A program made the position numbers. A DNA stretch of 64,000 nt from Escherichia coli (GTDB lineage Bacteria; Pseudomonadota; Gammaproteobacteria; Enterobacterales; Enterobacteriaceae): NCBI RefSeq assembly GCF_003334765.1, contig NZ_QOWT01000001.1, one strand, 5' to 3'. This document shows positions 21,001 through 24,000 of this stretch, piece by piece. The first letter of the stretch is position 1. Each line of letters starts with the position of its first letter.

Positions 21001-24000
21001 GATTTCTGGCGTTTTACGCCAGTTCGCAGAAGAAGAGTGTTATGTCTATGAGCGTCAACCCTGTTGGTATTTAGGCAAAGGGTGCCAGGCACGGCTGCAC
21101 ATTAATGCCGACGGAACGCAGGCGACATTTATTGATGATGCTGGGGAGCAAAAATGGGCGGTGGATTCCATTGCCGACTGCGCGCGTCGTTTTATGGCGC
21201 ATCCTCAGGTGAAAGGACGTCGGGTATATGGACAGGTTGGGTTCAACTTTGCGGCGCATGCGCGGGGGATTGCCTTTAACGCCGGGGAGTGGCCGCTGCT
21301 GACGTTAACCGTTCCCCGTGAAGAACTTATTTTTGAAAAGGGAAATGTCACCGTTTATGCGGACTCCGCCGACGGGTGCCGACGTTTGTGCGAGTGGGTA
21401 AAAGAGGCCGGTACAACGACGCAGAACGCACCACTGGCGGTGGATACCGCCCTCAATGGTGAGGCATATAAACAACAGGTTGCGCGCGCCGTTGCGGAGA
21501 TCCGCCGTGGCGAGTATGTCAAAGTGATTGTCTCGCGCGCCATTCCCCTGCCATCGCGGATTGATATGCCCGCCACGCTGTTATACGGGCGGCAGGCAAA
21601 CACGCCTGTGCGCTCGTTTATGTTCCGTCAGGAAGGACGCGAAGCGCTGGGCTTTAGCCCGGAACTGGTGATGTCAGTGACGGGCAATAAAGTGGTCACT
21701 GAACCGCTTGCGGGCACCCGCGATCGCATGGGAAACCCGGAGCATAATAAGGCGAAAGAGGCAGAACTGCTGCACGACAGTAAAGAGGTGCTTGAGCATA
21801 TCCTTTCTGTCAAAGAAGCTATTGCTGAACTGGAGGCTGTTTGCCAGCCGGGCAGCGTGGTGGTTGAAGATTTAATGTCGGTTCGCCAGCGCGGCAGCGT
21901 TCAGCATCTGGGGTCTGGCGTGAGCGGTCAGCTTGCGGAAAACAAGGATGCCTGGGATGCGTTTACCGTGCTGTTTCCGTCGATTACCGCCTCAGGTATC
22001 CCTAAAAATGCTGCTCTGAACGCGATTATGCAAATTGAGAAGACGCCGCGAGAGCTTTATTCCGGCGCAATCCTGCTGCTGGACGATACGCGCTTTGATG
22101 CGGCGCTAGTTCTGCGTTCCGTATTTCAGGATAGCCAGCGCTGCTGGATACAGGCGGGGGCGGGAATCATCGCGCAATCTACGCCGGAACGCGAACTGAC
22201 AGAAACCCGGGAGAAATTAGCGAGCATTGCGCCCTATTTAATGGTGTAGGAGTAACTGTTTTCTAACCTCACAACCAGACTGTCCAAAGACAATTGAGTC
22301 GCTCTTTGATTCCTCTGTGACTCTATTGTCTTCTTTTGGGATAAAATAGGTGTTTTTCGTCATGAAGTTGATAAAAGTCTATATAGAACCACCTCCTGTG
22401 GAGGTGGTGGTAATTTGCCAGAGTGTGGGATTCGTTAGTATACTATGGGATAAACTTATTTTTACCAATTGTATAAGGCGGTGCATAAGATTCTCGGCAT
22501 GCTTCCAGATAATCCGACCACCACTGCATCATCGCTTTGCGGGCTTCCAGGTGCTCTGCCTTATGAATATAAGCCATGCGCACGGTATTGCGCTCCTGAT
22601 GACTCATCTGGCGTTCTACTGCGTCCTTTGCCCATAAACCCGATTCCATCAGCGCACTGCATGCCATTGCCCGGAAGCCGTGACCGCAGATATCCTTTTT
22701 CGTGTCGTAACCCATCACCCGCAGTGCCTTATTGACCGTGTTTTCACACATTGGCTTATACGGGTTATGGTCGCCGGGGAAGATCAGTTCATTATTACCG
22801 GTGATATCCTTAATCTGTTTCAGAATGGCGATGGACTGTTCTGAGAGGGGGACGATATGCGGCATTCGCATTTTTGCCCCGCGGCCGGAATAATGCACGC
22901 CAATAATGGGTTCTCGCGTCGCGGGTATCGTCCAGACTCGGTTTGTGAAATCAATCTCTGACCAGCGGGCGAAACGCAGTTCACTGGAGCGAATGAACAC
23001 ATGCAGCATCAGCAGAACGGCATGCCGGGTCAGTTCACGGCCCTGATGATATGCCCCAATACGTTCAAGCAGTTCAGGCAGCCGCTCCAGCGGCAGGGCA
23101 GGATAGTGCCGTCTGACAGGAGGTGTGGTCACGCCGCCAAGGTTTGCTGCAGGGTTCGTATCGATTAACTCCTGATGGACCGCATGGCGTATTATGTTAC
23201 TCAGGTGCTGCCGTGTGCGGGACGCAACCTCCAGCAGACCTTTTTCCTCGATCCCTTTCTGCAGGTCAATGAAATGACGGGGTTTAAGTTCTGATACAGG
23301 TAGGTTCCCGATGACCGGAAAGATGTGATTGTTCAGGCTGGCAAGCAGACGGTCGGCGGTGTTCTGCGACCATTTCCTGTTACTTTTATGCCACGCCAGC
23401 GCCACGTTTTTAAAAACTTTCTCCGGTGTTCGTGAGCCACGTACAGCAGCCCGCTGCTGTACCGGGTTGATATTCAGCGCCAGCATTTTACGGATACCTT
23501 CACGTTGCTGTCGCGCATCAGACAGGGAGATGGCTGGATAGGCACCCAGCGCAATGCGGGATTCTTTACCGCTAATACGGTATTTGAGATACCAGTGGCG
23601 GGAGCCACCCGGCTTGACCCGCAGATACAGACTGTGAGAATCGGAGACTTTAAAGGGTTTATCAGAAGGCTTGAGGGTGCGGATTTTTGCGTCGGTAAGG
23701 GATATATGGGGGTCACTCCATTATCGAACTAACCCGACCCCAGATTTGACCACCAATTTTTCCCGATGCGTAGGGTAAAATCAAAATGCACCGAGAAGAG
23801 TTTTCACACTAACCTGTTGAATCAACATCAGATAAAGATTCGCAAGGATGCAAGAAAACAGAAAATTGGCTCCTCTGACTGGACTCGAACCAGTGACATA
23901 CGGATTAACAGTCCGCCGTTCTACCGACTGAACTACAGAGGAATCGTGAGAACGGGGCGCATATTACTTAGCGGTACCTTGTCTGTCAACACTAAATTTC

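What the first reader, a model, noticed from the sequence alone, without database searches (positions are those of the whole stretch)
23486..23710. HPI integrase has ATA where the ATG start is expected
The integrase frame is open for 73 codons upstream of the first ATG (23486) and encodes a P4-integrase-like N-terminus (I-SLTDAKIRTLKPSDKPFKV...). At the position where Met is expected the codon is ATA (23703-23705), immediately preceded by an in-frame TAA, with no ATG/GTG/TTG in between. Either the integrase is made from a non-canonical start, or only an N-terminally truncated 347-aa product is made, or this is a start-codon lesion that has immobilised the island.
Basis: seen in the sequence. 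Interest (0 to 1): 0.5.

Follow-up and report, generated by a model that had tools for sequence, protein, structure and literature searches.

The report
Common ATA start-codon allele of HPI integrase
The integrase gene of this E. coli yersiniabactin island does begin with ATA instead of ATG, but this is a common inherited variant (920 complete E. coli genomes, including Nissle 1917 and 042) in a gene that is no longer under selection on an island that had already lost its far-end attachment site, so it is ordinary gene decay.

Summary
On the minus strand the HPI P4-type integrase frame runs from 23705 to 22443. Codon 1 is ATA (23705-23703). The first ATG is codon 74 (23486). No ATG, GTG or TTG lies in frame between an upstream TAA and that ATG. 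One detail is wrong: the TAA (23723-23721) is five codons upstream, not adjacent.

ATA is not private to this genome and is not a sequencing error. A seed-killing 31-mer test finds ATA in 920 of 5,426 complete E. coli genomes, about 41% of HPI carriers. Six other species, the pks-island paralogue and the ICE-type HPI all have ATG behind an identical 5' leader, so ATA is derived within the main E. coli HPI clade.

The gene is unconstrained in E. coli. It shows 19 nonsynonymous to 4 synonymous segregating sites, against 109 to 188 in the other eleven HPI genes of the same genomes. One sampled ATA allele also has a nonsense codon and another has lost Met74.

The fyuA-side junction lacks the 17-bp repeat and is shared by 2,231 genomes with either start codon. 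The lesion therefore did not immobilise the island.

Verdict: a hypomorphic start-codon allele in a decaying integrase. RefSeq already annotates the CDS from the ATA. Interest is low.

The parts
23867..23942 (-). tRNA-Asn (asnT), the integration target of the island. Its 3' end carries the 17-bp core/direct-repeat sequence CCAGTCAGAGGAGCCAA (23882-23866).
   Evidence: ARAGORN. The exact 17-mer was located. The same 17-mer is given as attO in PMC2801613.
23706..23866 (-). int 5' leader, 161 nt. It is nearly invariant across species. The window lineage carries a private G at 23735 (position -30).
   Evidence: Alignments. No sigma-70-like promoter was found in this stretch by the simple scan.
23716..23719 (-). 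Shine-Dalgarno-like GGAG, 10 nt upstream of the ATA.
   Evidence: The duplex with the anti-SD is -5.9 kcal/mol.
23721..23723 (-). In-frame TAA that closes the frame five codons upstream of the ATA.
23703..23705 (-). ATA at the position of the ancestral ATG start codon of int. RefSeq/PGAP places the CDS start here.
   Evidence: ATA occurs in 920 genomes. Outgroups have ATG.
23445..23699 (-). Arm-type DNA-binding domain, codons 3-87.
   Evidence: Pfam PF13356, E=6.9e-23. PDB 3JTZ matches residues 2-81.
23484..23486 (-). First canonical start in frame (ATG, codon 74). It is preceded by only a weak AGGT/AAGG motif 9 nt upstream.
   Evidence: This codon is mutated to ATA (M74I) in strain 21KM1392.
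23631..23633 (-). Codon 25, AGT (Ser) in place of GGT (Gly). Together with the G at 23735 it marks the 41-genome sublineage to which the window belongs.
22554..23414 (-). Core-binding domain (Phage_int_M, codons 98-191) and catalytic domain (Phage_integrase, codons 224-384).
   Evidence: Pfam.
22443..23705 (-). Whole int_HPI (intB) reading frame: 420 codons plus TAG, intact apart from the start codon.
   Evidence: It is annotated as WP_024193699.1 in NZ_CP030768.1, which differs from the window at 3 of 64,000 bases.
20945..22249 (+). ybtS, the first yersiniabactin gene, convergent with int. It places the integrase at the left end of the HPI.

Best explanation
This is the P4-type integrase gene (int/intB) at the asnT end of the Yersinia high-pathogenicity island. 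It carries a derived G-to-A transition in the third base of its start codon (ATG to ATA). The allele arose inside the main E. coli HPI clade. It now sits on several recombinant int backgrounds and in about 41% of HPI-positive complete genomes. Inferred mechanism: AUA pairs poorly with initiator tRNA, so full-length Int is probably made at a few percent or less of the ATG level (hypomorph to near-null). Nothing canonical replaces the start until codon 74, and a product from there would lack most of the arm-binding domain. The fyuA-side attachment repeat is missing and no CDS, and so no excisionase gene, is annotated between fyuA and the chromosomal gene fragment that follows. The gene also accumulates amino-acid changes at the neutral rate in both ATA and ATG backgrounds. 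The ATA is therefore one neutral step in the decay of a stranded integrase. It is neither the cause of immobilisation nor a regulatory device. Shown here: the base, its distribution, its polarity, the lack of constraint and the shared truncated right border. Inferred: the size of the translational defect and the absence of Int activity.
For: Distribution. An ATA 31-mer was designed so that a mismatch at the variable base removes every 28-nt megablast seed. It hits 920 of 5,426 genomes, one place each. The ATG version hits 1,287 genomes, a count that includes the pks-island paralogue. Direct reads show ATA in 042, Nissle 1917, 21KM1392, FEX669, MLI104K1, APEC E123, GU2018_CL13 and L1PEag1.

Polarity. 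ATG follows an identical 40-nt leader in Raoultella planticola, K. pneumoniae ATCC 13883, K. spallanzanii, Pantoea, Izhakiella and Affinibrenneria. The same holds for pks int and for E. coli DA33133, and for ten contigs encoding the ancestral-type protein.

No constraint. Across the sampled E. coli main-clade alleles (the window plus ten strains) there are 23-24 nonsynonymous sites, including Q394* and M74I, against 7 synonymous sites. Between species pN/pS is 0.14; Fisher p=0.0012. In the same five genomes int has 19 N to 4 S, while the other eleven HPI genes have 109 N to 188 S (Fisher p=2e-5).

Island already fixed. No copy of the 17-bp repeat, even allowing 3 mismatches, lies between fyuA and the next asn tRNA. 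No CDS is annotated in the 650 bp between fyuA and the yeeJ-like fragment. The same junction is present in 2,231 genomes and was seen directly in ATA strains and in ATG strain AR_0089. [quoted passage not shown]

AUA strength. In vivo it is 1-2% of AUG, or 0.02-3% with NanoLuc (bioRxiv 10.1101/063800). Older cases gave about 7.5% and about 15% (PMC5499595).
Against: The 420-codon frame is still intact in this allele and in most sampled ATA alleles. An intact SD-like GGAG remains. PGAP annotates the gene as a normal CDS. An in-vitro study found AUA mRNA as active as AUG mRNA in an optimised initiation region (PMC5499595 abstract), so some Int may be made. No expression or recombination data exist for this allele. 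The substitution counts rest on about a dozen alleles and five genomes. Within-species N/S ratios are inflated by young deleterious variants, although the internal control on the neighbouring HPI genes addresses this.
Confidence: 0.8

Rival explanations
1. ATA is a working, selected weak start codon. It keeps Int at a very low level, for example to avoid harmful recombination among the four asn-tRNA attB copies, while preserving a functional recombinase.
For: The ORF is intact and the SD-like motif is retained. The allele is at high frequency, in 920 genomes. It sits on several haplotype backgrounds, with four gametes against sites -148 and 86. AUA can initiate at 0.02-3% of AUG in vivo and near AUG level in vitro. 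Three further asn tRNAs with the 17-bp core lie within 16 kb.
Against: The codon is not conserved. Outgroups and more than half of E. coli HPIs have ATG. The ORF behind it evolves without purifying selection: 19 N to 4 S against 109 to 188 in neighbouring genes. ATA alleles also pick up a nonsense codon (GU2018_CL13) and other radical changes. ATG alleles in the same clade are equally unconstrained.
Confidence: 0.08
2. Translation starts at ATG codon 74 (23486) and yields a 347-aa arm-less integrase, which is the real and possibly functional product.
For: This is the only canonical ORF. Prodigal-type pipelines deposit exactly this 347-aa protein, for example AKA90986.1, seen on at least 1,000 contigs. 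A weak AGGT lies 9 nt upstream.
Against: The product would lack 71 of the 85 residues (3-87) that match the arm-binding domain. That domain is described as essential for the mobility function of element integrases (PMC8138268). The SD is weaker than at the ATA (-3.9 against -5.9 kcal/mol). Met74 is itself mutated to Ile in ATA allele 21KM1392. There is no constraint on the downstream ORF.
Confidence: 0.05
3. The start-codon lesion is the event that immobilised the island in this lineage.
For: ATA is derived and should cut Int synthesis sharply.
Against: The right border without the 17-bp repeat is common to 2,231 genomes, both ATA and ATG carriers. Excision is therefore blocked whatever the start codon. 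ATG alleles show the same relaxed constraint, which implies that int became dispensable before or independently of the ATA change. The literature assigns immobility to the attR deletion.
Confidence: 0.04
4. Sequencing or assembly error at 23703.
For: None beyond the prior plausibility of a single-base error.
Against: The identical base is present in 920 independent complete assemblies from many laboratories, hosts and platforms.
Confidence: 0.005

Closest known systems
Int_HPI (intB) of the Yersinia high-pathogenicity island / ICEKp-ICEEc1 family, a P4/CP4-57-like tyrosine integrase targeting asn tRNA genes
   Same: It has the same gene, position and 5' leader. It is 98.3% identical in protein to the Raoultella planticola allele, whose protein is identical to that of the ICE-type allele in E. 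coli DA33133. It has the same three-domain architecture. The N-terminal domain is 78/80 identical to PDB 3JTZ. From my own knowledge, and from the reference list of PMC8138268, 3JTZ is the HPI integrase arm-binding domain of Szwagierczak et al. 2009.
   Different: The start codon is ATA rather than ATG. The window allele also carries six amino-acid replacements relative to the ancestral-type allele: G25S, L29R, E88V, L149Q, M172I and R271H. It sits on an island without attR.
Other decayed HPI integrases: the truncated intB with bp 124-470 deleted (Paauw et al. 2010, PMC2801613), and the Y. enterocolitica 1B int with a premature stop (from my own knowledge of Rakin et al. 2001, not checked here)
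   Same: These are the same gene losing function by different lesions once the island is fixed. The 347-bp deletion was seen here in O26 RM8426, and an internal stop in GU2018_CL13.
   Different: Here the lesion is at the initiation codon only. The frame is intact and annotation pipelines disagree: 420 aa from ATA in PGAP, 347 aa from ATG74 elsewhere.
Genes with conserved, functional non-AUG starts (infC AUU/AUC, autoregulated by IF3)
   Same: Both have a near-cognate AUN codon at the annotated start.
   Different: In infC the rare codon is phylogenetically conserved and regulatory (PMC5499595). Here it is a within-species polymorphism, ancestrally ATG, in an unconstrained gene.

Membership tests
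P4/CP4-57-like arm-binding tyrosine integrase | Three-domain architecture: arm-binding, core-binding and catalytic | tested here: met
   Pfam PF13356 matches residues 3-87, PF22022 residues 98-191 and PF00589 residues 224-384. NCBIfam PRK09692 integrase domain matches residues 3-403 at 227.6 bits, below its 434-bit cut-off.
P4/CP4-57-like arm-binding tyrosine integrase | Catalytic R-K-H-R-H/W + Y residues present | tested here: inconclusive
   By eye the translation contains the expected motifs: FIRSSELR, GAKMRMPHIVPL, HGFRAM, MSH and MAYIH. No residue-level alignment to a characterised integrase was run.
P4/CP4-57-like arm-binding tyrosine integrase | Gene lies next to a tRNA gene whose 3' end holds the recombination core | tested here: met
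   tRNA-Asn lies at 23867-23942. The 17-bp CCAGTCAGAGGAGCCAA lies at 23882-23866.
Mobile HPI / ICE form (excisable island) | Second copy of the 17-bp repeat (attR) at the fyuA-distal end | tested here: not met
   In NZ_CP030768.1 (3 SNPs from the window) no copy with up to 3 mismatches lies between fyuA and the next asn tRNA. The junction is shared by 2,231 genomes. The right end lies outside the window itself.
Mobile HPI / ICE form (excisable island) | Recombination directionality factor (Hef/Xis) and/or conjugation module on the island | tested here: not met
   Only about 650 bp with no annotated CDS separate fyuA from a chromosomal inverse-autotransporter fragment. No dedicated homology search for hef was run.
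Mobile HPI / ICE form (excisable island) | Integrase under purifying selection | tested here: not met
   N:S is 19:4 in int against 109:188 in the other HPI genes. Between mobile-type alleles of different species pN/pS is 0.14.
Functional conserved non-AUG start gene | The non-AUG codon is conserved among orthologues | tested here: not met
   ATG is found in six other species, in pks int, in the ICE-type HPI and in at most 1,287 E. coli genomes (a count that includes the pks paralogue).
Functional conserved non-AUG start gene | Demonstrated initiation at the non-AUG codon | not testable with these tools
   This needs translation-initiation-site profiling, a reporter fusion or N-terminal proteomics.
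Formal pseudogene (frameshift, internal stop or truncation) | Disrupted reading frame | tested here: not met
   The 420 codons are open from ATA to TAG. PGAP does not flag the gene as pseudo.

The most novel reading that the evidence does not exclude
The ATA allele has been favoured rather than merely tolerated. Once attR was lost, residual Int could only do harm, for instance by recombining the four neighbouring asn-tRNA cores. Throttling its translation at the start codon would then have spread by recombination, or arisen more than once, across E. coli phylogroups. The mosaic haplotypes around the site (four gametes) and the N/S ratio slightly above the neutral expectation do not exclude this.
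Probability: 0.07. Interest if true: 0.4.

Novelty: already known. Interest (0 to 1): 0.15.

Why it matters
The main value is practical. About 920 complete E. coli genomes, including the probiotic Nissle 1917 and the EAEC reference strain 042, carry an HPI integrase whose annotation depends on the pipeline. PGAP gives 420 aa starting at ATA, and Prodigal-style callers give 347 aa starting at Met74. Comparative studies that score int as intact or truncated, or that use it as a marker of island mobility, will therefore be inconsistent. Biologically it adds a small, clean example of how a stranded island integrase drifts. In the same genomes the integrase evolves neutrally while the adjacent siderophore genes stay under purifying selection. 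It opens no new question about mechanism.

Tried and rejected
1. My first reading of the 81-mer search was that only 41 genomes carry ATA and the rest ATG. This was wrong. One search showed that the single mismatch is at 23735 in the leader, not in the start codon. The 41 genomes are only the window's sublineage.

2. The 59-mer ATA and ATG queries gave identity bands confounded by nearby SNPs (S2F, D5S). I replaced them with 31-mers in which the variable base kills all megablast seeds.

3. The 22-kb chromosomal flank search, meant to test clonality of the carriers, did not discriminate. Many B1-type genomes with and without HPI are about 100% identical there.

Y. pestis int DNA was therefore never read directly. 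Its N-terminal protein sequence is seen only through PDB 3JTZ.

5. Literature searches for a description of the ATA start in HPI int found nothing. Szwagierczak 2009 (PMC2797237) is not held.

6. I tried to infer a single or multiple origin of ATA from a dozen alleles. Site pairs show all four gametes, so recombination and recurrence cannot be separated with this sample.

7. The promoter scan found no consensus promoter in the int leader. This says little, because the scan is crude.

Full report
**What is in the window.** On the minus strand a tRNA-Asn gene lies at 23942-23867. Its 3' end carries the 17-bp core CCAGTCAGAGGAGCCAA (23882-23866). A 161-nt leader follows, then a 420-codon frame from 23705 to the TAG at 22445-22443. 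ybtS lies convergent at 20945-22249. This is the left end of the Yersinia high-pathogenicity island (HPI) inserted at asnT. The window differs at 3 of 64,000 positions from E. coli 2017C-4173W12 (NZ_CP030768.1). In that genome the island continues through ybtX-Q-P-A, irp2, irp1, ybtU-T-E and fyuA.

**The observation.** Codon 1 of the frame is ATA (23705-23703). An in-frame TAA lies five codons upstream (23723-23721). The first in-frame ATG, GTG or TTG is ATG at 23486, codon 74. The upstream 73 codons are real coding sequence. Pfam Arm-DNA-bind_3 covers residues 3-87 (E=6.9e-23), followed by Phage_int_M at 98-191 and Phage_integrase at 224-384. PDB 3JTZ, an integrase N-terminal domain, matches residues 2-81 with 78 of 80 identical. 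A GGAG lies 10 nt upstream of the ATA.

**ATA is not private to this genome.** I first misread the 81-mer search (41 genomes at 100%, 2,148 with one or more mismatches) as ATA being rare. Reading the sequences showed that the single mismatch is a leader SNP at 23735. E. coli 042, Nissle 1917, FDAARGOS_1058, JP538 and N51 all have ATA. To count cleanly I used 31-mers in which the variable base sits at position 28, so that a mismatch there removes every 28-nt megablast seed. ATA is present in 920 of 5,426 complete E. coli genomes, always as one copy. The ATG version is present in 1,287 genomes and 1,311 places, a count that includes the paralogous pks-island integrase. Since 2,231 genomes carry the HPI right junction, ATA accounts for roughly 41% of HPI-positive genomes. 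Carriers named in the hit lists or read directly include Nissle 1917, 042, S88, NC101 and an APEC O78 strain. A sequencing error is excluded. RefSeq/PGAP annotates the CDS from the ATA as an ordinary 420-aa protein (WP_024193699.1 here). Other pipelines deposit the 347-aa Met74 form, for example AKA90986.1. Both forms are on at least 1,000 contigs in the public protein collection.

**Polarity.** All have ATG behind an identical 40-nt leader. The pks-island integrase and the ICE-type HPI of E. coli DA33133, inserted at another asn tRNA, also have ATG. So do ten contigs that encode the ancestral-type protein, which is indexed in 9,072 blocks of the assembly collection. ATG is therefore ancestral, and ATA arose inside the main E. 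coli HPI clade. Yersinia DNA itself was not retrieved.

**Is the gene still under selection?** I tabulated variable sites among E. coli main-clade int alleles (the window plus ten strains), using the R. planticola/DA33133 allele as the ancestral reference. Leaving the start codon aside, there are 23-24 nonsynonymous sites and 7 synonymous ones. The nonsynonymous sites include Q394* in GU2018_CL13, which PGAP flags as 'internal stop', and M74I in 21KM1392. R. planticola against K. pneumoniae gives 8.5 nonsynonymous and 18.5 synonymous differences, pN/pS 0.14. The contrast is significant (Fisher p=0.0012). Within-species ratios can be inflated, so I used the rest of the island as an internal control. 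In the same five genomes (window lineage, Nissle, L1PEag1, 21KM1392 and the ATG strain AR_0089) int has 19 N to 4 S. The other eleven HPI genes together have 109 N to 188 S (Fisher p=2e-5). Nonsynonymous density in int is about four times that of its neighbours. ATG alleles of the main clade (AR_0089 with D5S, L29R, A55T and E88V; YJ1 with S2F, P57Q and R271H) are as unconstrained as ATA alleles. O26 carries a 347-bp internal deletion that matches the 'bp 124-470' truncated intB of Paauw et al. (PMC2801613).

**Why the integrase is dispensable.** In the window's lineage fyuA is followed, after about 650 bp with no annotated gene, by a fragment of an inverse-autotransporter gene and then by ordinary chromosome. 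The 17-bp repeat occurs only in the four asn tRNA genes, even allowing three mismatches. The same junction is present in 2,231 genomes. I saw it directly in ATA strains (Nissle, L1PEag1, 21KM1392) and in the ATG strain AR_0089. This agrees with the published view that deletion of the 3' border, including attR, hinders excision in the vast majority of E. coli strains (bioRxiv 10.1101/2025.09.17.676721, citing Schubert 1999). It also agrees with the view that the island spreads within E. coli by homologous recombination of flanks (PMC2606025). The right-border loss is shared by both start-codon classes, and both are unconstrained. The ATA change is therefore a consequence of the integrase being stranded, or a neutral event after it, and not the cause of immobility.

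**Likely molecular effect (inferred).** In E. coli, AUA initiates at about 1-2% of AUG with GFP, and near-cognates at 0.02-3% with NanoLuc (bioRxiv 10.1101/063800). Older single-gene cases gave about 7.5% and about 15% (PMC5499595). The same paper reports AUA behaving like AUG in an optimised in-vitro system, so some full-length Int may be made. A product starting at Met74 would lack most of the arm-binding domain. A survey of tyrosine recombinases describes that domain as essential for the mobility function of element integrases (PMC8138268). Its upstream SD is weaker (-3.9 against -5.9 kcal/mol), and Met74 is itself lost in one ATA allele.

**Origins.** Site pairs (-148 with 86, and 3 with 86) show all four gametes. 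The int alleles are therefore mosaics, as expected for an island that moves by homologous recombination. With a dozen alleles I cannot tell one origin plus recombination from recurrent mutation. This leaves a small space for the view that silencing Int was favoured.

**Verdict.** The feature is real and its description is essentially right. It is a common, derived, hypomorphic start-codon allele of a well-known integrase that is drifting on an already immobilised island. RefSeq annotation already handles it. I found no paper that discusses it, but it lies squarely within known kinds of island decay. Its main practical consequence is inconsistent annotation, 420 aa against 347 aa.

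Noticed in passing
L044 (NZ_CP151067.1, strain 21KM1392) 23564-24325 and the int at 30882-32144: This ATA-allele HPI has lost ybtA, irp2 and most of irp1; a 762-nt 'hypothetical protein' sits between ybtU and ybtP. Its int also has M74I, so the 'first ATG' is ATA there too.
   Followed up: partly
L011 (E. coli O26 RM8426) 1629-2544: The int has an ATG start and S2F but is 347 bp shorter and flagged as frameshifted. The size matches the 'bp 124-470 deleted' truncated intB reported by Paauw et al. 2010 (PMC2801613).
   Followed up: partly
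L030 and L031 (strains YJ1 and CUVET25-1155), 1.5 kb upstream of int: This HPI int (ATG, S2F, P57Q, R271H) has no tRNA-Asn within 1.5 kb upstream (ARAGORN finds none in L030). A DUF6387 gene lies there instead, so the left junction differs from the usual asnT context.
   Followed up: no
int alleles, sites -148, 3, 86, 263, 812 and 1171 relative to the start (window 23852, 23703, 23620, 23443, 22894, 22535): Several site pairs show all four gametes among a dozen alleles. The 1.4-kb int region is therefore a recombinant mosaic, or has recurrent mutations.
   Followed up: partly
window about 40388-42082 (= NZ_CP030768.1 5009582-5011276): PGAP flags dgcQ (cellulose-regulating diguanylate cyclase) as a pseudogene with an internal stop in the near-identical genome. 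This was not checked in the window itself.
   Followed up: no
window about 57.5-58.7 kb (= NZ_CP030768.1 4992342-4993597): An IS200/IS605 tnpA is flanked by fragments of an SOS-response peptidase gene and an HTH gene, between yedF and ybcM. It looks like a small insertion scar.
   Followed up: no
hit list (NZ_CP136552.1): An engineered O104:H4 strain is named 'rpoS_ATGtoATA'. The same substitution is used deliberately as a translational knock-down, which fits the hypomorph reading.
   Followed up: no
public protein collection: The same locus is deposited both as a 420-aa protein (PGAP, ATA read as Met) and as a 347-aa protein (Met74 start, for example AKA90986.1 from E. coli VR50). Each is on at least 1,000 contigs, so annotation is systematically inconsistent.
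   Followed up: yes
window 23706-23866: The simple sigma-70 scan finds no promoter-like site in the int leader. The nearest is the tRNA-Asn promoter at 23989-23961, so int may depend on read-through or on a non-consensus promoter.
   Followed up: no
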